From: a virus
Lineage: Duplodnaviria; Caudoviricetes
Length of the DNA: 64,000 nt
Reading direction: 5' to 3' (one strand)
IMG/VR virus record: IMGVR_UViG_3300010340_000989
Span: 100,997-164,996 of that record
Shown: piece by piece, positions 51,107-59,677 of the stretch
How positions within the stretch are numbered: the stretch's first letter is position 1
Layout of the letters: every line of letters begins with the position of its first letter
Notes under the pieces: generated by a model
The model's input: only the letters and a program-made list of their open reading frames with translations
What the model was told of the DNA's origin: nothing
Database searches by the model: none
Made by a program: the position numbers and the translations under genes

Positions 51107-51721
51107 TTAAGCCATTCTAAAATCTTTAAGAAAGTCTCTCAAGAAAACATTCTTTTCTCCTCCCATATAATCAACCCATTTATTGTAATAGTCTACTAAA
51201 TCTTTAGATTCTTTACAAGTTTTTCTAAGAGATTTAATAAACCATCTATCATTACGATTATTTACAGAAATATAAGGATTTGGATTGTTCCAAATCCAAT
51301 CTTCAAAATCTAAATAAACATATTTTTTATTTTCATCTTTTAGAAAAACTCTTTCATCTACAATAAAAACTACTCCTGTTAATTGATCACCTAAATCTGG
51401 TTCGTTAAAACCAACATTAAAAATACCATTCTTATCAAGTGTTTCTTTATGGTTGTTTAATGATCCAACATATTTATGATCCACAATTCGATTATTTGTA
51501 GTACCACCATTTAAAACGATATAAGTTTTCCAGTTTTCTAACCAATCAACATATCGTTCAATATCTTCTTTAGGTATATCATTGCCTTTACCCATAAGAG
51601 ATTTAATAACTTTTAATGCAAATTCATCGGTTGCGTGTCCATATTGAATTCCAGATTGTATTCCACTTAACTGATAAGGTGTTAATCCATACATCCTTAA
51701 TTCTAATCTTTTAGTTTCCAT
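51107..51721 (-). CDS. PTH2-like peptidyl-tRNA hydrolase-fold protein
   Basis: LS.IQ.GIQ.GHA, KT.IVLNGG, F.EPDL..QLT. Confidence 0.55.
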   Translation of the reverse strand: METKRLELRMYGLTPYQLSGIQSGIQYGHATDEFALKVIKSLMGKGNDIPKEDIERYVDWLENWKTYIVLNGGTTNNRIVDHKYVGSLNNHKETLDKNGIFNVGFNEPDLGDQLTGVVFIVDERVFLKDENKKYVYLDFEDWIWNNPNPYISVNNRNDRWFIKSLRKTCKESKDLVDYYNKWVDYMGGEKNVFLRDFLKDFRMA

Positions 51722-52575
51722 CCTATTGTATTTTTTGCAAAAATTTTATTACCAATAACCATATCTTGTGTTATTGTATTATTTTTATATTTTTTTAAAA
51801 CATGAAGTTGTAACTTACTTTCTTTACAAAATAATTGTAGTTTATTATTACCATATATTATAAATTCATCTAAAGATGGAGATATTAAAAAATATATTTT
51901 TATATCAGATCTTATATTAGAATTTTTCTTACCTTTTCTTAATGAAGAAGATTTCTTTATTGAATTTCTACCTTTTTCAGATAAAATAATCTTACCATCT
52001 TTGTGAGCTTTGCGAACTGATTCTTTTTGTTTTTCGCTAGTTTTTTTACCATACATGCAATTTTTTTCACCCATTTGCCTATCCGAGACTTTTTTCCTAT
52101 TTTCTTCATTAGAATAATAATCTTTCTTAATATTAGAAATTTTTTTAGAAAATTCTTCGGATTTCATTTTATACAACCATTCTTTATTATTTTTAATAGA
52201 ATTTTTTTGTTTATTAATAGACAACTCACTTCTTTTAATACCTAAAGATCCATCTCCTCCTTTTGTCATATTTGTTAATGGTCCATTTGGATATCTACCT
52301 ATTTTTTTAATTACTTCAATTTCAATTCTTTTAGCATAATCATCATCTATATTTTCATATAAAAAAACTATTTTTGGTAGAAGACCAAAATTCTTAATTT
52401 TTTCAATTTTACCTGATTTATGAGTATTAATAACTTTTTTTTCATTAAGATGTTCATATGCTCTATATCCATATCCTTTACCAACATAGAAAGGTTCATA
52501 ATCAAATTCTAAATCATCGTATATAAAAATTCCAGGCTTTCTTACATCTAAATAAACATAAACATAACTATTCAT
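51703..52575 (-). mobile_element. Free-standing GIY-YIG homing endonuclease with NUMOD3 motifs
   Basis: YVYVY...PFYVGKG..R..EH, GPLTN.TKGGDG, GEKNCMYGK; TTATATATA upstream. Confidence 0.82.
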
Positions 52576-52622: not shown

Positions 52623-53132
52623 TTATATGGTACTAGTTATATTTTTAATTTTAAGTGAAAGACTTCTATTACTAAATGGTTTCATACCAGTTACTTCAAT
52701 AAGAACTAAGTCTTTAATATAGTCTGGTAAAACTACTTCATAATCTTCGGTAGGAATTTCGATTTCAGCAATGATTAATTGATAACCACTATTAAATTCA
52801 TCAACTTCCCACTTTAGATCACCATCTTTATAGATGTGTCTTGTTTTCTTTATATACTTTGAATCATTTGGAGTTTTATAACATTTATCCTTAAAAGCAT
52901 TGAATTCTTTCAAAGAAAGAAAATGTTCATCTTCCATATTTGCAATCTTAGAAACAGATTTTTTAATGGTGTGAATGTATTTCACATCACCATTAGAGGA
53001 AGACCAGCTTCTAGCTCGTTCCCAAATTCCTGCTTGATTTTTAAAATAAAACTGATGTATTTCTACAATCTGTTCTGGTTGAATCCCTGGTAGAGATTTT
53101 AAGAGAAATTTGCGTTCAATTTCTAGATTCAT
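52623..53132 (-). CDS. CYTH-domain (triphosphate tunnel) protein
   Basis: EIERKFL, IKKTR, WEVDEF, AEIE, EVTG. Confidence 0.88.
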   Translation of the reverse strand: MNLEIERKFLLKSLPGIQPEQIVEIHQFYFKNQAGIWERARSWSSSNGDVKYIHTIKKSVSKIANMEDEHFLSLKEFNAFKDKCYKTPNDSKYIKKTRHIYKDGDLKWEVDEFNSGYQLIIAEIEIPTEDYEVVLPDYIKDLVLIEVTGMKPFSNRSLSLKIKNITSTI

Positions 53133-53584
53133 TATTGATTTCTATTTTTTATATAAGTTTCTACTTTTTCAAATATACGGCTAATTATTAAAAGTCCAAA
53201 TGTTAAAATTATTGGAAGTAAAAAAGAATTTATCGTGCCGATCAATATACCAATTGCTGATACTATCCATATAAATGCTGCAGTTGTTACTCCTACTATC
53301 TTATCATCATTTTTCATGATAACACCAGCACCAAGAAATCCAATTCCAGTTACAATCTGTCCAATAATTCTGGTTGGATCAATATTTGGATTACCTTTTG
53401 ATAGGTAAAATGATAGCGCGGTTAGTATAGTACACCCAACACATATTAAAATGTTTGTTCGTATACCAGCAACTTTTTGTTTAATCTCTCGGTCATACCC
53501 AATTATCAATCCACATATAGTTGCTATAAGGACTTTAGGGAGTAAAAATGTTGCTAGTGGAATAAATTCTGGATCTATAATCAT
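53132..53584 (-). CDS. mgtC: MgtC/SapB-family membrane protein
   Basis: IGYDRE..K.AGIRT, DPTRIIGQIVTGIGFLGAG, GVTTAA; TATAAATA at 53591-53598 (-). Confidence 0.9.
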   Translation of the reverse strand: MIIDPEFIPLATFLLPKVLIATICGLIIGYDREIKQKVAGIRTNILICVGCTILTALSFYLSKGNPNIDPTRIIGQIVTGIGFLGAGVIMKNDDKIVGVTTAAFIWIVSAIGILIGTINSFLLPIILTFGLLIISRIFEKVETYIKNRNQ

Positions 53585-53969: not shown

Positions 53970-54323
53970 ATGAAAAACATCAAATCTTTTGGAAGTTTTA
54001 AAATAAACGAAAATACTGAAAATATTGAAAACTCAGAAAAACTAACTGGAGAAGTAACTCTTTACAGACTAACATCACATCCTGTTGTTGATTTATCTCA
54101 ACCAGGAGAATTCTATTTTTCAGATTCATCAAAGGTAAATCCTGATTTTTTAGAAAATAAAGAATCTAACGATCTTTATCTAATTACAGTAAAATGTGAT
54201 TCTAGTAATATTGATGATGAAAAATCTGAACTAGAGTGTGCTAAATTAGATTGTGATTGTATTGTTGCTGTTAAGGATGATACTAAATGTGAGGTTATTT
54301 CAGTAGAACCATATAAAGGATAA
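53970..54323 (+). CDS. Tagged protein, possible degenerate ADP-ribosyltransferase-like fold
   Basis: MKNIKSFGSFKINE; TLYR...G.FYFS pattern; TAATATATA 53945-53953. Confidence 0.5.
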   Translation: MKNIKSFGSFKINENTENIENSEKLTGEVTLYRLTSHPVVDLSQPGEFYFSDSSKVNPDFLENKESNDLYLITVKCDSSNIDDEKSELECAKLDCDCIVAVKDDTKCEVISVEPYKG

Positions 54324-54327
54324 TAAT

Positions 54328-54498
54328 ATGAAATATTTAAAAACATTTGAAAGTCTAGATAAAGTAAAATCAATTCATGTATCAACACACGAATTGGATG
54401 AGTATGATCAACCAGTTCTTAATATTGAAACAGAAAATGGTCGAAAATACTACCTAAATTTAAAATCATGGAATGATTTTGATGATACTGAAGATTAA
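54328..54498 (+). CDS. 56-aa tagged protein missed by the ORF track (MKYLKTFESLDK...)
   Basis: Manual translation; same N-terminal tag as neighbours. Confidence 0.75.
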   Translation: MKYLKTFESLDKVKSIHVSTHELDEYDQPVLNIETENGRKYYLNLKSWNDFDDTED

Positions 54499-54530
54499 AG
54501 AAATTTTAAAAAGAAAATATATTCTTACTA

Positions 54531-54842
54531 ATGAAATACTTAAAAATATACGAAGAGTTTGACTCTCAAGGATACCAATCACATTGGGATAAATTTACAA
54601 AATGGTTGTCTGATAAAGATTTTGATCTATATGACGGTTTAGAAGATTTAAAATCTAAATTTATGGAAATTGCTAATGATGATAGTTTAGCAGTTGAAGA
54701 AAAGTCAAATGAAATTGCAGGTTATCTAGACGAGAAATGGGGTCTTTATGACGGATATATGGATGTGGTTGATTACCTTGAATCACTATTTATGGATGAG
54801 GATGAATATCATGATGGTGAATATGATGATGAAAATTACTAA
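54531..54842 (+). CDS. Very acidic putative internal head protein
   Basis: MKYLKIYEEF; D/E-rich. Confidence 0.7.
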   Translation: MKYLKIYEEFDSQGYQSHWDKFTKWLSDKDFDLYDGLEDLKSKFMEIANDDSLAVEEKSNEIAGYLDEKWGLYDGYMDVVDYLESLFMDEDEYHDGEYDDENY

Positions 54843-54844
54843 CT

Positions 54845-55324
54845 ATGAGATACTTAAAAAAGTTTAATGAGAGTGAATCTAAGGATTATGACTTTTATAT
54901 GTCAATATATGATCCACTTGATAAGTTTGTTGTTGGTGCTTATATGATAATTGAAGATTCTGAAAAAACAATAACAGTTTTAAACCTTCAAGAGAAAGAA
55001 GACACAAGAGGATTTTTCGCAGATGGTAAGACACCATATACATTTATGCCGTTTAAAGTTAGATTACCCAAATCACAAATAGAAGTTTTAGATTCAGTAG
55101 ATAACATGGATGGATTTAACTGGATTAAGATACCTTATTGGTTAATTAAAAATAATCCAGGTTTAAAAATACAAAGAATTAAAAAGTCAAAAAGATTTTC
55201 TAACAACTCAACATTACATAAGTTATTGAAGCCTGAAATGGTTGATGATGATGTTAGAAAATATTTAAGTATTACTGATAAAGATCCTAGAACTATAATT
55301 AATCTGAATTTTATTAAAAAATAA
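54845..55324 (+). CDS. Putative internal head protein
   Basis: MRYLKKFNESE. Confidence 0.7.
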   Translation: MRYLKKFNESESKDYDFYMSIYDPLDKFVVGAYMIIEDSEKTITVLNLQEKEDTRGFFADGKTPYTFMPFKVRLPKSQIEVLDSVDNMDGFNWIKIPYWLIKNNPGLKIQRIKKSKRFSNNSTLHKLLKPEMVDDDVRKYLSITDKDPRTIINLNFIKK

Positions 55325-56216
55325 TTTCACCATCAAAACCCAATCTAACATTTTTACCATCAAATACTATAGTCTCTCTAATATCAGAAGGTTTAAATGT
55401 GTTTTTATGATAAACACGAATAGGTCTCCTAAATTGGTCTTCAGGTGGCATATAAACATAGTTAAAACATTCACAAGCGCCACCATATCTTTTCCAAGAT
55501 TTAGTTAATAGAAAGTTCTCGCCAATTAATTCTTTTATGTGAAAGTATATAAATTTTTCTTTTGAGTATTCATTGACAGGCATTAAAGATACAAGACCTA
55601 TGTCATTAACATTTACTGAATTAGACCAATCGAGATATTTAAATACTTCTTCTTTACTATCGATATATCCTTTTATTAGATTACATCTAAATTGAATTTG
55701 ATGTTGATCTCTTGCATTATTTTTGACAATATCTAATATCTCTTCGGATGAAGGGGTTTTAGTTCCAAAAATCTCATCATTTAACTTATCATCATAGTGA
55801 TGTCGAGATAATTGTATATAATCGTAAAGTTTAGAAACCGGATCTTCCATTAATTGTCTCCATCTAAATCCATCCGTGTTCATAGATAGTTCGGCATTTG
55901 GTGCCCATTCTTTTGCTAAATTTGAGATACTTAAAAAATTATCCCAATATAAGGTCGGTTCGCCACCTGAAACAGCAACTTTGCTAATTTTTATTTTAGA
56001 TGTTATTTCTTTGAATACCTCAATAAGTTTCTTTTCATCATATTTATTAGCATCATCAGCATATGTGCAAAATTTACATTTTGCATTGCAAAATTTTGTT
56101 CTTATATAAAGATGAACGTATGGTTCTTGTACCTCTTGAGCATCTTGTTCAAAAAGATGACAAACATGGGTTTTTAATGGAATGTTTTTACCAAATAATT
56201 CAATACTTTCTATCAT
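55314..56216 (-). CDS. Radical SAM enzyme
   Basis: CNAKCKFC, SGGEPT, MNTDG, QLSRHHYDD; start moved to ATG 56216. Confidence 0.9.
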   Translation of the reverse strand: MIESIELFGKNIPLKTHVCHLFEQDAQEVQEPYVHLYIRTKFCNAKCKFCTYADDANKYDEKKLIEVFKEITSKIKISKVAVSGGEPTLYWDNFLSISNLAKEWAPNAELSMNTDGFRWRQLMEDPVSKLYDYIQLSRHHYDDKLNDEIFGTKTPSSEEILDIVKNNARDQHQIQFRCNLIKGYIDSKEEVFKYLDWSNSVNVNDIGLVSLMPVNEYSKEKFIYFHIKELIGENFLLTKSWKRYGGACECFNYVYMPPEDQFRRPIRVYHKNTFKPSDIRETIVFDGKNVRLGFDGEIIF

Positions 56217-56229
56217 AAACTTACTATTG

Positions 56230-56514
56230 TTAACAACGTGATGAAGAATATCCACCACCACCACAACCACTACTTGTGTAATTTGACGAAGAGGAAGAAC
56301 TAGAAGGTTTTTTCTTTTTAATTTTAGGCTCTATATCATTTTCAGTACAAAAAGTTAGATATACTGTCCTTTCAACGTCCCCTGTATCAATTAAATCTTC
56401 AGCAGCATCATTGAATTTCATTTCAAAATCTGATTGTTTAGTGTATCGTTTTTTATAAAAACTTGCTAATTTCGTTAGCAATTCTTCTTGTTGACTATCA
56501 TGTAGTTTTCCCAT
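56230..56514 (-). CDS. Small protein with Ser/Gly/Cys tail; candidate radical SAM substrate
   Basis: Ends KKKKPSSSSSSSNYTSSGCGGGGYSSSRC; 13 nt from the rSAM start; TAATATATA 56534-56542. Confidence 0.7.
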   Translation of the reverse strand: MGKLHDSQQEELLTKLASFYKKRYTKQSDFEMKFNDAAEDLIDTGDVERTVYLTFCTENDIEPKIKKKKPSSSSSSSNYTSSGCGGGGYSSSRC

Positions 56515-56550
56515 AATAAGTAATATTTTTTATTATATATTAAAAACTAT

Positions 56551-56832
56551 CTAATGATTTAATATATTCTTTAATTTCTTTTGTCTTATTTCCTTTAATG
56601 TTAATTTATCTGTATCTTCCCATAAAACAGTAGTACCAAAATCAATTATAAGTCTTCTTTGTTTTTTAAAACAACATTGGCAAATCCTTGAAGGAAATGA
56701 ACCCTGATATTGTCTTTCTAGTAAATTAGATATAGTATTATATACATAATATTTATCAACCTCATCCTTCCAAGAAGAATATTCCCAGTCATGATATCCA
56801 AAAAAACATTTTATTTTATTTTTATAACTCAC
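56551..56832 (-). CDS. Zinc-binding hypothetical protein (DUF1660-like) with C-terminal tag
   Basis: KCFFGYHDW...RICQCC; ends KEIRQKKLKNILNH. Confidence 0.7.
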   Translation of the reverse strand: MSYKNKIKCFFGYHDWEYSSWKDEVDKYYVYNTISNLLERQYQGSFPSRICQCCFKKQRRLIIDFGTTVLWEDTDKLTLKEIRQKKLKNILNH

Positions 56833-57820
56833 TGATTAAATTTAATGATTTTTTATATCTTTCATTCCAATCACCACCAATTTCTACGAAATTACACCCA
56901 TAGTTTATAAGATATGATTTAATAACTTCATAATGATTCCATCTCTCCTCTAAGAATTTTCTTGTACCATCTTGAACACCTTCACAATCTGGTTTTAATA
57001 AGATGTAAAGATCATATTTAGGTTTGGTTTTAAGAACATTTAAGAAGTATGGTTCAACTTTTTGGTATTCATCAGGACAATACATCTTTGAAAAAAGATA
57101 TGTTGTTATATCTTCTGTATCACATATTAGATATTTTTTAGAAAATTTTATCATCCAATCTTCTATTTCTTGACGACCTTTTGAGATAGGAATAAAATCA
57201 TCAATAGTTATTGAATTATTAATCTCATATATCAATCTACCATATTCAGTAACAAAATTAGTTCCTAAATTATTAGATACATTTTTAGTTAATGTAGATT
57301 TACCAACTGACTCAGGCCCCATGATTGCAATCCTTTTTACAAAAAATGGCTTCATAGAATCTGGTATAAAATTCCAATTTTTAAATGGATCATTTCTAAC
57401 CATAGTTCCTGAAATAGGTACAATTTTTCTTTCTTTATCAACTAATACATGTTCAACACCAAGATATCGAGCAAAATCATCCCCATAGTTTTCAGATGTA
57501 AATACAGCATCTAAACTATCGATTTGTGAATAAACAAGTGGTATCCAATATGAATAAAATTCATCCAAAGTTTCACAATCATAATCATAAGCTGGTAGAC
57601 CTTCATCCGAAACACAATAGATTTTAATGTTAGGGACTTTATCATAACACGATTTAAGTGCATCAAATCTAACTTCACCAGGAATAGATTGTGATGAATT
57701 ATGTGTTATAATTACATGTACCATCTCAGATTGAGATAAAGCGGTATTAATTAGATATAAATGTCCAAGATGTAATCCATAGAATTTACCTAAAACTAAT
57801 ACATTTTTATATTTTTTCAT
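56822..57820 (-). CDS. nadR: Bifunctional NMN adenylyltransferase / ribosylnicotinamide kinase (NadR, no HTH)
   Basis: GKFYGLHLGH, VFTSENYG, PISGT.VR, GPESVGKST, EYGR, CDTE, QDGTR. Confidence 0.9.
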   Translation of the reverse strand: MKKYKNVLVLGKFYGLHLGHLYLINTALSQSEMVHVIITHNSSQSIPGEVRFDALKSCYDKVPNIKIYCVSDEGLPAYDYDCETLDEFYSYWIPLVYSQIDSLDAVFTSENYGDDFARYLGVEHVLVDKERKIVPISGTMVRNDPFKNWNFIPDSMKPFFVKRIAIMGPESVGKSTLTKNVSNNLGTNFVTEYGRLIYEINNSITIDDFIPISKGRQEIEDWMIKFSKKYLICDTEDITTYLFSKMYCPDEYQKVEPYFLNVLKTKPKYDLYILLKPDCEGVQDGTRKFLEERWNHYEVIKSYLINYGCNFVEIGGDWNERYKKSLNLISEL

Positions 57821-58652
57821 CTTCTATTAATTTATCAATTTCTTTAAAATTATTATCCATTATTAAATAAAAATCATATATTTTTGAGGCAGTTTCTTTT
57901 TTTATGATATTTATTTCTTTGTTCTTTTCCCAATAGTACCAAGATTTTATCTCAAATATTATATTTGTATTTTTTATTTTGAAATCAACAAAATAAATAT
58001 GTTCTTTACCATTCATATCAAAATAAGGAATTGTTGGTCCCTTTTCAATAATATCAAACTTACCTTTGTATTCTAAATATTCTATAAACTTTAATTCATA
58101 TTTACTTTGATAATTCAATCCTTTATATTCTTTTGTATGAATTTTTGCCCATCCACTACCTGGGCTTCTACGACCTTCTTTGAAAGCGAGAATTGCAGAT
58201 TTACTCATTTTAGTTTTAACATCTTCACTTCTTTTACTTCCAGTATTTACTTTATGTGCTTTTTTCCAAGGTTTTGCCTCTCTTATCTTTATTTTACTAC
58301 TTTCCCAAGTAAACGGATTGCCATTTAGTTCCATATATTTCCTTGTAGCCTCTTTTGAATTTTCTGAACAAGGTTTACCAAAGTGAATATTTCTATTTCC
58401 TTTATTTACACATTTTTTACAATAATGAACATTATTATTAATATCTAAATCTCTTATACGTCTTTTATGAATTATACTACAATCATCACATATTAAATTT
58501 ATAGATATAGTTCTAAATGTTGATCCTTTTAAAAATGTCCAATGTACTTCAATCTCATTTCCTTCAATTTGTTTACCTATTTTTCTCTCCCACTTTGTTT
58601 TACTTTTATCAGATATTTTAATTTTGACAAATTCACCTTCTTTTATATACAT
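57807..58652 (-). mobile_element. Free-standing TnsA-like PD-(D/E)xK endonuclease with NUMOD3-like motifs
   Basis: YQSKYELKF, IPY, YFVDF...EIKS, K; late motif 58672-58680. Confidence 0.72.
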
Positions 58653-58697
58653 TTTATAATTTATTTTTATGTATATATTACAATTATTCCCTCTACT

Positions 58698-58919
58698 TTA
58701 AGGACATATTTCATCTTCTATTAGTTTAAACCTAACTTCACCATCTGTACTTAATTCATTCCAAATATCTAGTGGTCTTGAATAATAAGATCCAAACAAT
58801 AAAGATTGATAATTTACAAAAATTTCTTGTGTTTCTGTATGTTTAGATAGGAAAAGAACTCTATAAAGACCACCTTTATAATGTCTATATTTTTTACCGG
58901 GTTCTGGATATTTTATCAT
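58698..58919 (-). CDS. DUF1653-family protein
   Basis: YRHYKGGLY.V...HTET.E..V.Y......RP. Confidence 0.85.
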   Translation of the reverse strand: MIKYPEPGKKYRHYKGGLYRVLFLSKHTETQEIFVNYQSLLFGSYYSRPLDIWNELSTDGEVRFKLIEDEICP

Positions 58920-59155
58920 TGTAATGTTTTATTAATATATTCCAATTTTTCAATAGGACATTCAATATGATTAAGAGATTTTATTAGTTCTCCTAACTCA
59001 TTTGAAGATTCTTTTATAATATCCTTTAAATATCTTGATTCCTTCACTGATTTAGATTTTAAAAATTTCTTCACTGTGCCATTAACTATAGATCTCTTAA
59101 CAAATAACTTAATTTGTTGTTCATCTAATCCATTTATTTTTTTTTTAAATCCCAT
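58916..59155 (-). CDS. Hypothetical basic protein
   Basis: 79-aa ORF, ATGA-coupled. Confidence 0.65.
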   Translation of the reverse strand: MGFKKKINGLDEQQIKLFVKRSIVNGTVKKFLKSKSVKESRYLKDIIKESSNELGELIKSLNHIECPIEKLEYINKTLQ

Positions 59156-59158
59156 ATA

Positions 59159-59677
59159 TTATTTTTTAATTTTATTCCAATTTATTAATCCTTGTATAGA
59201 TAATATCAAAAACACTAAATATATAAATGATGATAAATATAGTTGATTTTGAATAAAAAGTATTATGTATAAAATGTCTGCCACTATCCAAAAATACCAA
59301 GCCTCTATCTTTTTAAACAATAATAGAAACATCCCAAAAATACTAAGTGTTGTAGTTATTGTGTCTAAAATAGGATGAGTACTTTCAATGGTTAAATATG
59401 AAACTATAAGTAAAGTGGGTGCTAAATAAGATAATATCTCAAAGAATTCTGTTTTTTTAAGAGATTTTATTTCGTTATTCTTATTCCAATTTATCCAAGC
59501 ATAAATAGATTGAGCTAAAAATAATCCTTGTAACCAAAAATTTGCAAATTCACTTTTTGTGTAAAATAAATATGCGAACGCCAAAATACCAATAATACCC
59601 GTTGGCCAACACCAAATTTTATTTTTTGATGTTAACCAAACTGATATAAGACTAAATAATACTGCTATTATCTCCAT
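59159..59677 (-). CDS. pnuC: PnuC-family vitamin (nicotinamide riboside) transporter
   Basis: WCWPTGI, YAWINW, LDT, KKIEAWYFWIVAD, GLINW; multi-TM. Confidence 0.88.
   Translation of the reverse strand: MEIIAVLFSLISVWLTSKNKIWCWPTGIIGILAFAYLFYTKSEFANFWLQGLFLAQSIYAWINWNKNNEIKSLKKTEFFEILSYLAPTLLIVSYLTIESTHPILDTITTTLSIFGMFLLLFKKIEAWYFWIVADILYIILFIQNQLYLSSFIYLVFLILSIQGLINWNKIKK

What the first reader, a model, noticed from the sequence alone, without database searches (positions are those of the whole stretch)
55314..56542. Phage radical SAM enzyme paired with a RiPP-like Ser/Gly/Cys-tailed protein
Seen: a two-gene unit behind its own TAATATATA motif. The first gene encodes 94 aa with a helical body, KKKK linker, S7 run and core TSSGCGGGGYSSSRC ending in Cys. 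A CxxxCxxC radical SAM enzyme follows 13 nt later and has no obvious full SPASM Cys set (only a CEC near the end). Established: rSAM maturases are usually encoded next to their precursors and form Cys-thioether or aromatic cross-links (sactipeptides, ranthipeptides). Inference: a phage-encoded peptide/protein modification system with the two Cys and the Tyr as likely cross-link sites; product function is unknown.
Basis: partly seen in the sequence, partly recalled or inferred. Interest (0 to 1): 0.82.

Follow-up and report, generated by a model that had tools for sequence, protein, structure and literature searches.

The report
Phage radical-SAM enzyme with Cys-ended partner
A huge uncultured phage encodes an iron-sulfur radical enzyme right after a small three-helix protein whose floppy tail ends in cysteine; the pairing recurs across many distantly related giant phages, so the two are probably an undescribed enzyme and its protein target.

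Summary
On the minus strand, a 94-aa protein (56230-56514) ends ...GCGGGGYSSSRC. Thirteen nt later comes a 300-aa radical SAM enzyme (55314-56216).

The enzyme has a CxxxCxxC motif and no SPASM or RRE domain. It carries three more invariant Cys (C19, C248, C250).

The pairing is not chance. Of 57 distinct family enzymes with enough upstream DNA, 43 have a 60-200-aa ORF ending in Cys within 800 nt, and 36 have it immediately upstream. All 56 close homologs of the small protein end in Cys.

- The Tyr is Phe in near relatives and absent from over half of the tails.
- The first Cys is missing in 5 of 41 tails.

The enzyme's fold is closest to MoaA, GDGT-MAS and viperin, but no invariant basic residue exists to bind a nucleotide triphosphate. 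The family is almost entirely viral.

Two context features stand out. The pair repeatedly sits inside a TonB-receptor/PnuC/NadR NAD-salvage module. In another clade it sits beside a short RlmN-like second radical SAM enzyme.

Best reading (0.55): the enzyme modifies the Cys-bearing tail; the chemistry is unknown. This scan noted the same pair earlier on other DNA. I found no paper describing it.

The parts
56230..56514 (-). Small partner protein, 94 aa: three-helix bundle (residues 3-58) followed by a disordered tail (60-94) that ends in Cys94
   Evidence: Translation. AlphaFold2 model with helices 3-23, 27-44 and 49-58, and tail pLDDT about 50. 56 of 56 homologs end in Cys.
56233..56337 (-). 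Coding region of the flexible tail: KKKK, Ser7 run, then GCGGGGYSSSRC. Terminal Cys codon at 56233-56235.
   Evidence: The Ser-run length varies between near-identical homologs while the last ~12 residues are kept.
55314..56216 (-). Radical SAM enzyme, 300 aa, member of a virus-dominated family with no name
   Evidence: Pfam Radical_SAM 57 bits. No NCBIfam model near its cutoff. 192 clusters at E<1e-30. Model pLDDT 90.
56067..56090 (-). CxxxCxxC (C43, C47, C50), the radical SAM [4Fe-4S] cluster motif
   Evidence: Invariant in A1 and A3.
56160..56162 (-). Cys19, invariant, in the N-terminal beta-hairpin region
   Evidence: A role as ligand of an auxiliary cluster is inferred, not shown.
55797..55808 (-). 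SRHH motif (residues 137-140) at the end of core strand 4; S137 and H139 are invariant
55467..55475 (-). C248-E-C250 (CxC), invariant, in the C-terminal beta-sheet extension
   Evidence: Candidate ligands, with C19, of an auxiliary cluster (inference).
56533..56542 (-). TAATATATAA motif 19 nt upstream of the small gene's ATG
   Evidence: 11 exact copies against 3.3 expected in the window. Function not shown.
56822..57820 (-). NadR-like NMN adenylyltransferase / ribosylnicotinamide kinase; recurrent neighbour of the pair
   Evidence: TIGR01526 220.8 bits, below its 341 cutoff but aligned over the full length. Synteny.
59159..59677 (-). PnuC nicotinamide riboside transporter; recurrent neighbour
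   Evidence: PF04973 at 3e-42. TIGR01528 75.9 bits against a cutoff of 42.45. Synteny.
59950..61686 (-). TonB-dependent receptor; head of the co-directional gene run
   Evidence: Plug and beta-barrel domains. Kept in L001, L002, L007-L011, L102 and L105.

Best explanation
The two genes form an enzyme-substrate module that is found almost only in very large phages. The 300-aa radical SAM enzyme has a MoaA-like overall fold and no SPASM or RRE domain. It cleaves SAM at the C43/C47/C50 cluster to make a 5'-deoxyadenosyl radical. I infer that it uses this radical to modify the disordered, Cys-bearing C-terminal tail of the adjacent three-helix protein.

The most likely target is the terminal Cys and the few residues before it (consensus [R/N]-[S/G]-x-Cys-COOH). 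The invariant C19/C248/C250 trio probably holds a second Fe-S cluster that positions the thiolate. This is how auxiliary clusters serve thioether-forming and Cys-oxidising radical SAM enzymes.

My preferred chemistry, with low confidence, is a thioether or another oxidative change at Cys. One alternative is oxidative decarboxylation of the last residue.

Shown: the gene pair, the conserved motifs, the fold and the co-occurrence. Inferred: the binding, the auxiliary cluster and the reaction. The purpose of the product is unknown. Its repeated placement inside a TonB-receptor/PnuC/NadR NAD-salvage gene set suggests a role in host takeover or counter-defence.
For: (1) Conserved adjacency. Of 57 distinct family enzymes with at least 450 nt of upstream DNA, 36 have a same-strand 60-200-aa ORF ending in Cys immediately upstream, and 43 have one within 800 nt. 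This holds down to about 30% enzyme identity.
(2) The pair survives rearrangement. It is convergent in L005, and a GIY-YIG endonuclease gene is inserted between the two genes in L006.
(3) All 56 close homologs of the small protein end in Cys. The last ~12 residues are kept while the Ser-linker length drifts.
(4) The 41 distinct tails share a C-terminal signature. Cys is at -1 in 41 of 41, a basic residue lies at -2 to -5 in 36 of 41, and a second Cys lies 7-13 residues upstream in 32 of 41. Some tails carry 3-5 Cys at a similar spacing, like multi-site precursors.
(5) The small protein is a three-helix domain plus a disordered tail, which suits a tethered substrate.
(6) The enzyme keeps C19, C248 and C250 invariant and C178 nearly so across 25-60% identity. 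No Arg or Lys is invariant, which argues against a nucleoside-triphosphate substrate.
(7) Full-length structural neighbours include peptide-modifying enzymes: SuiB (Z 15.7), CteB (14.9), SkfB (14.8) and anSME (14.2).
(8) In another clade a second, RlmN-like radical SAM gene flanks the same small gene, a layout typical of multi-step maturation clusters.
Against: - No experiment and no supported docking model link the two proteins.
- The top structural and sequence neighbours, MoaA and viperin, act on nucleotides.
- Two enzyme clades have no Cys-tailed neighbour. The complete 735-kb genome LR756501 has the enzyme but no detectable homolog of the small protein anywhere.
- A few homologous partners do not end in Cys (L125, L128, L133, L083).
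- No recognition domain, protease or exporter was seen next to the pair.
Confidence: 0.55

Rival explanations
1. The enzyme acts on a nucleotide or small molecule tied to the neighbouring NAD-salvage genes (NR, NMN, NAD, ADP-ribose or an NTP). The small protein would then be a helper, carrier or regulator rather than the substrate.
For: The closest solved relatives by sequence profile and fold are MoaA (E 1.4e-15; Z 17.0) and viperin-like enzymes (E 5e-15; Z 16.5), which act on GTP and CTP. The pair lies within or next to TonB-receptor/PnuC/NadR in clade A and in a separate sub-clade of clade B. In L133 and L102 it sits between pnuC and nadR or right after pnuC. In the P0233 contig it lies between NadR and a CinA-family gene.
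Against: No invariant Arg or Lys exists to bind a triphosphate. No Mob_synth_C domain is found, and the viperin model scores 43 bits against a 180 cutoff. Most clade B loci have no NAD genes nearby. This reading does not explain the conserved Cys-ended tail.
Confidence: 0.15
2. The small protein is a stable subunit of the enzyme rather than a substrate. For example, its terminal Cys could supply the fourth ligand of an auxiliary Fe-S cluster or deliver sulfur or iron.
For: Three invariant extra Cys (C19, C248, C250) would leave one open iron site. The terminal position of the Cys is nearly universal.
Against: Near-invariant C178 could be the fourth ligand. Tails vary widely in length, Cys number and spacing. 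Some enzyme clades manage without any such partner.
Confidence: 0.1
3. The enzyme is an activase that installs a stable glycyl or thiyl radical on the small protein, like PFL-AE acting on PFL or YfiD.
For: There are weak matches to PFL-AE and NrdG models (44 and 38 bits) and to the PFL-AE fold (Z 13.9). The window's tail is Gly-rich with GGGGY.
Against: Scores are far below the cutoffs (231 and 131). Tails such as ...RNDDSSYSRSSC in L007-L010 contain no Gly, so no glycyl site is conserved. No glycyl-radical enzyme fold is present in a 94-aa three-helix protein.
Confidence: 0.04
4. The adjacency is inherited gene order among related phages and carries no functional link.
For: Many loci come from related giant phages with broad synteny.
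Against: The pair persists at about 30% enzyme identity, in different surroundings (NAD genes, an RlmN-like gene, or neither), and through inversions and insertions.
Confidence: 0.03

Closest known systems
Thioether-forming radical SAM maturases and their Cys-bearing precursors (CteB/SCIFF, PapB ranthipeptides, NxxcB, SkfB, AlbA) and the protein-level case CrpC/CrpA (PMC13692751)
   Same: A radical SAM gene sits directly next to a small gene whose C-terminal region carries Cys at regular spacing. The core fold is similar (CteB Z 14.9, SkfB Z 14.8). Extra conserved Cys are available for a second cluster.
   Different: No SPASM motif or domain. No RRE domain: only about 30 residues precede the core. 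The 'leader' is a folded three-helix domain. The key residue is the very last one. No protease or exporter was seen. The family is almost wholly viral.
MoaA (GTP 3',8-cyclase)
   Same: It is among the best full-length structural matches (TMq 0.62-0.64, Z 17.0) and the best PDB sequence-profile match (1.4e-15). In MoaA, three Cys in a C-terminal extension hold an auxiliary cluster with an open iron site (from my own knowledge of the MoaA structure papers).
   Different: NCBIfam MoaA models score 34-44 bits against cutoffs of 231-325. No Mob_synth_C domain is found. No invariant basic residues are available for GTP. One of the three extra Cys is N-terminal.
MftC/MftA (mycofactocin) and scaffold-peptide 'pearlin' pathways such as TglA-Cys (PMC9016710)
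   Same: In both, chemistry is done on the last residue of a ribosomal peptide that serves as a handle. TglA carries a C-terminal Cys that is modified in place.
   Different: MftC has SPASM and needs the RRE protein MftB. TglHI is not a radical SAM enzyme, and its Cys is added by a tRNA-dependent ligase. Here the Cys is encoded. No release protease was seen.
HxsC (His-Xaa-Ser system radical SAM maturase without SPASM)
   Same: It is the best NCBIfam hit (49 bits), of similar size, and lacks SPASM.
   Different: The cutoff is 268 bits and only the core aligns. The partner has no His-Xaa-Ser repeats.

Membership tests
Radical SAM superfamily | CxxxCxxC cluster motif, GGE SAM-binding motif and partial TIM-barrel core | tested here: met
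   PF04055 57 bits against a 29.5 cutoff. C43/C47/C50 and GGEP 84-87 are invariant. The modelled fold matches many radical SAM structures at Z>14.
SPASM/twitch radical SAM peptide maturases | C-terminal SPASM domain with the 7-Cys motif (or a twitch half-domain) holding auxiliary clusters | tested here: not met
   No PF13186 hit at E<=0.01. Only CxC (C248, C250) lies in the C-terminal part. A twitch-like single cluster built from C19/C248/C250 remains possible but was not testable.
SPASM/twitch radical SAM peptide maturases | N-terminal RRE (PqqD-like) domain or separate RRE protein for leader binding | tested here: not met
   Only about 30 residues (a beta-hairpin) precede the core. No PqqD hit in the enzyme or its neighbours.
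RiPP biosynthetic system | Precursor with a leader and core that is cleaved and released, with a protease and/or exporter in the cluster | tested here: inconclusive
   Window neighbours gave no peptidase or transporter family except PnuC and the TonB receptor. Cleavage cannot be tested in silico.
MoaA (GTP 3',8-cyclase) | Score above the family cutoff, Mob_synth_C domain and conserved Arg/Lys that bind GTP | tested here: not met
   34-44 bits against cutoffs of 231-325. No PF06463 hit. No invariant Arg or Lys in A3.
Viperin / prokaryotic viperins | Score above the family cutoff and a C-terminal NTP-binding extension | tested here: not met
   NF038283 43 bits against a 180 cutoff. The structural match covers the core only.
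Glycyl-radical enzyme activases | Family-level score, and a partner with a conserved Gly radical site | tested here: not met
   PFLA 44 bits against 231.75, and NrdG2 38 bits against 131. Some partner tails have no Gly.
anSME (formylglycine-forming) | SPASM domain, and the substrate motif C/S-x-P/A-x-R | tested here: not met
   No SPASM. The tails lack this motif.
HxsC | TIGR03977 score above cutoff, and a His-Xaa-Ser repeat partner | tested here: not met
   49.2 bits against 267.9. The partner has no HxS repeats.

The most novel reading that the evidence does not exclude
A virus-specific radical SAM enzyme without SPASM or RRE works on the genetically encoded last residue (Cys) of a folded carrier protein. 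The module is functionally coupled to phage NAD+ salvage (TonB receptor, PnuC, NadR). It might build a small molecule or cofactor on a protein C-terminus, or it might make a modified protein that counters NAD-depleting host defences.
Probability: 0.15. Interest if true: 0.85.

Novelty: new variant of a known kind. Interest (0 to 1): 0.64.

Why it matters
If the pairing is enzyme and substrate, it defines a new radical SAM subfamily of at least 192 clusters at 50% identity. The subfamily would recognise a protein's extreme C-terminus without the usual SPASM and RRE equipment, and it appears to have diversified inside giant phages rather than in cells.

That would add a new post-translational chemistry to phage biology. 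It would also give a compact 300-aa enzyme plus a short tag, which could be of interest for protein engineering.

The repeated embedding in a phage-encoded route from outside the cell to NAD+ raises a testable question: is the modified protein part of host takeover or counter-defence?

Tried and rejected
- Complex prediction with the enzyme, two 4Fe-4S clusters, SAM and the small protein gave no verdict (scores 0.33, 0.08, 0.08). It counts neither for nor against binding.
- Foldseek of the small-protein model against the PDB gave nothing below E=5. The ESM Atlas feature search gave no usable hit.
- Pfam, NCBIfam and PHROGs gave the small protein only sub-threshold hits (fulvocin-related E 0.027; phrog_4982 E 0.009). 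I do not rely on them.
- The search for related loci with the 40-sequence alignment A3 failed for lack of a conserved stretch. The 12-sequence alignment A5 worked.
- Four literature searches found no description of this pair.
- Glycyl-radical idea: rejected because some tails have no Gly.
- Cys-Tyr cross-link as the universal reaction: rejected because Tyr is replaced by Phe or absent.
- The sigma-70 and terminator scan was uninformative (56 promoter-like sites against 58.7 expected).
- I could not measure distances between C19, C248 and C250, because model coordinates are not exposed.
- The careful tree did not finish. Only the quick tree is used, and only for the broad two-clade picture.

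Full report
**What is there**

Both genes lie on the minus strand. The small gene (56230-56514) encodes 94 aa. Its tail has a KKKK stretch, seven Ser, and then TSSGCGGGGYSSSRC followed by the stop. Thirteen nt later, an ATG at 56216 opens a 300-aa radical SAM protein that ends at 55314. Homologs start at the same Met, so the longer GTG-started ORF listed is not the real start.

Pfam finds Radical_SAM (57 bits) and Fer4_12, with no SPASM domain. NCBIfam gives only weak, core-only hits, all far below their cutoffs: HxsC 49, MoaA 44, PFL-AE 44 and viperin 43 bits.

The motif TAATATATAA sits 19 nt before the small gene's ATG and is enriched in the window, with 11 copies against 3.3 expected. Most copies lie 4-5 nt before start codons, so its role is open. 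No terminator-like hairpin separates the pair from the upstream co-directional genes.

**Where the window comes from**

The window has about 26% GC and no tRNA genes. It is part of a 165-kb viral record judged about half complete. Its nearest database relatives are uncultured phages of 635-735 kb: LR745206, LR756502 and LR756501/3. An identical small protein occurs on contigs of up to 480 kb.

**The enzyme family**

A search of 5.8 billion proteins gave 230 hits at E<1e-5, nearly all unnamed and about 295-300 aa long. A profile search of 1.84 billion representatives gave 192 clusters at E<1e-30.

The following residues are invariant across 40 members at 25-60% identity:
- C19
- C43, C47 and C50
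- G84, G85, E86 and P87
- S137 and H139 (the SRHH motif)
- C248, C250 and F294

C178 is nearly invariant. No Arg or Lys is invariant.

The AlphaFold2 model is confident (pLDDT 90). Its best full-length matches are GDGT-MAS (Z 17.4), MoaA (Z 17.0; Foldseek TMq 0.62-0.64) and viperin (Z 16.5). Next come SuiB, BlsE, CteB, SkfB and anSME at Z 14-16. A sequence profile against the PDB ranks MoaA and viperin-like enzymes first, over the core only.

In the ESM Atlas the nearest structural cluster (TM 0.87) is 70% viral. A pattern scan of 185,579 species genomes found only two full-length members. One lies on a 425-kb, phage-like contig binned into an archaeal MAG, and the other on a 1.3-kb contig. 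That scan used a single peptide pattern, so its sensitivity is limited.

**The pairing**

I pooled loci from three complete megaphage genomes, IMG/VR, JGI metagenomes and other public assemblies. These hold 66 distinct family enzymes, of which 57 have at least 450 nt of upstream DNA.
- 36 have a same-strand ORF of 60-200 aa ending in Cys immediately upstream.
- 43 have such an ORF within 800 nt.

The pair also survives rearrangement. It is convergent in L005, and a GIY-YIG endonuclease gene is inserted between the two genes in L006.

All 56 close homologs of the small protein end in Cys. Their Ser-run length varies while the last dozen residues stay fixed.

The 41 distinct tails break down as follows:

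| Feature | Count |
|---|---|
| Cys at -1 | 41 of 41 |
| Arg or Asn at -4 | 26 of 41 |
| Basic residue at -2 to -5 | 36 of 41 |
| Second Cys 7-13 residues upstream | 32 of 41 |
| No second Cys in the last 30 residues | 5 of 41 |
| Aromatic residue at -2 to -8 | 18 of 41 |

Position -3 is mostly Ser or Gly. Several tails carry 3-5 Cys at similar spacing. The small protein models as a three-helix bundle with a disordered tail, and it has no significant fold match.

**Exceptions**

Two enzyme clades have no Cys-tailed neighbour: L003/L015, and L137/L141-L144/L150/L151. The complete 735-kb genome LR756501 has the enzyme at 47% identity but no detectable homolog of the small protein anywhere. In L125 and L128 the homologous partner has a Cys-rich tail that does not end in Cys. 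The L133 and L083 partners end ...GGCS and ...GYGRSS.

**Context**

In the window the co-directional order is TonB-dependent receptor, PnuC, several small ORFs, NadR, a 93-aa ORF, the small protein and then the enzyme. The same module flanks the pair in L001, L002 (inverted), L004-L011, L094-L096, L102, L105 and L114.

A quick tree splits the family into two clades. Clade A includes the window and is linked to NadR and PnuC. Clade B is mostly linked to a roughly 262-aa RlmN/Cfr-like radical SAM gene directly upstream of the small gene (TIGR00048 78-82 bits against a 290 cutoff).

A sub-clade of B (L136/L138, L147) is again next to PnuC and/or NadR. So are L133 and the P0233 contig, neither of which is on the tree; the P0233 contig also carries a CinA-family gene. 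In L133 the pair sits between pnuC and nadR.

The RlmN-like gene is absent from the window's record and from the three complete megaphage genomes. The NAD link is therefore recurrent but not universal. It may reflect function or old synteny, and I leave it unexplained.

**Interpretation**

Three observations together are most simply explained if the tail is the enzyme's substrate: the tight, rearrangement-resistant pairing; purifying selection on a short C-terminal motif behind a drifting linker; and tails with variable numbers of Cys.

The extra invariant Cys trio, together with the MoaA-like C-terminal extension, suggests a second Fe-S cluster. This is an inference, because I could not inspect model coordinates. 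The lack of conserved basic residues argues against a nucleoside-triphosphate substrate, despite the MoaA and viperin resemblance.

The only near-universal substrate feature is the terminal Cys. The chemistry remains open: a thioether, oxidative decarboxylation, or another change at Cys.

**Comparison with known systems**

The pair works like a radical SAM maturase with its precursor. It fails the tested membership features of SPASM/RRE maturases, MoaA, viperin, glycyl-radical activases, anSME and HxsC.

I found no paper describing it. The nearest published analogy is protein thioether installation by the SPASM enzyme CrpC (PMC13692751).

Earlier notes of this scan recorded the same pair in two other genomes and reached a similar reading. 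The NAD-salvage run in this window was also noted before.

**Verdict**

It is a new variant of a known kind of system, and its chemistry and purpose are unknown.

Noticed in passing
window 56822-61686 (-): A phage-encoded TonB-dependent receptor, PnuC and NadR form one co-directional run. This looks like a complete route from outside a Gram-negative cell to NAD+. The Cys-tail/radical SAM pair is attached to it in many related and some distant phages.
   Followed up: partly
L012, L088, L097, L113, L124, L141, L173 and about 20 more loci: A short (~262 aa) RlmN/Cfr-like radical SAM gene lies directly upstream of the small Cys-tailed gene in another clade. Where the small gene is missing, it lies directly upstream of the family enzyme. 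It is absent from the window's record and from three complete megaphage genomes.
   Followed up: partly
window 53970-55324 (+); also L001, L004-L006: Several small acidic proteins start with MK[YHN][LI]K.F.E-like N-termini (MKYLKTFESL, MKYLKIYEEF, MRYLKKFNES). These resemble the T4 capsid-targeting peptide, so they may be virion-packaged proteins. The 117-aa member (53970-54323) is a conserved neighbour of the pair in clade A.
   Followed up: no
window, 11 sites including 5307, 6774, 18733, 19135, 21595, 25035, 53945, 56533: TAATATATAA is over-represented (11 copies against 3.3 expected). It usually lies 4-19 nt before a start codon, so it may be a promoter or a translation-initiation element of this phage.
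   Followed up: partly
L006:2295-2996; window 51703-52575 (-): In L006 a GIY-YIG homing-endonuclease-like gene is inserted exactly between the small gene and the radical SAM gene. A similar GIY-YIG gene lies at 51703-52575 in the window.
   Followed up: no
L083:916-3129: A 737-aa fusion joins a HemN/HemW-like radical SAM domain to a member of this family, and the fusion itself ends ...QKSIC. The upstream ORF has a similar Ser/Gly/Cys/Tyr tail but ends ...GYGRSS.
   Followed up: no
L088:2010-2168; L089:1098-1235: A conserved 45-52-aa ORF (motif GY.YAVAIAT...GAACGQL) lies directly downstream of the family enzyme in two distant loci.
   Followed up: no
P0272-P0326 (homologs of window 56230-56514): The poly-Ser linker varies in length, and in some homologs is partly replaced, between otherwise >85%-identical homologs. 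This suggests slippage-prone coding repeats.
   Followed up: no
window 52623-53584 (-); L004:5723-6678: MgtC-like (150 aa) and CYTH-like (169 aa) genes lie just beyond the pair and are conserved in the closest relative. Both names are my reading of the translations, not family-search results. Only the conservation in L004 was measured (85% and 79% identity).
   Followed up: no
L102:4468-5454: A 3-dehydroquinate synthase (AroB, 334 bits, above its cutoff) lies directly downstream of the family enzyme on a phage-like contig.
   Followed up: no
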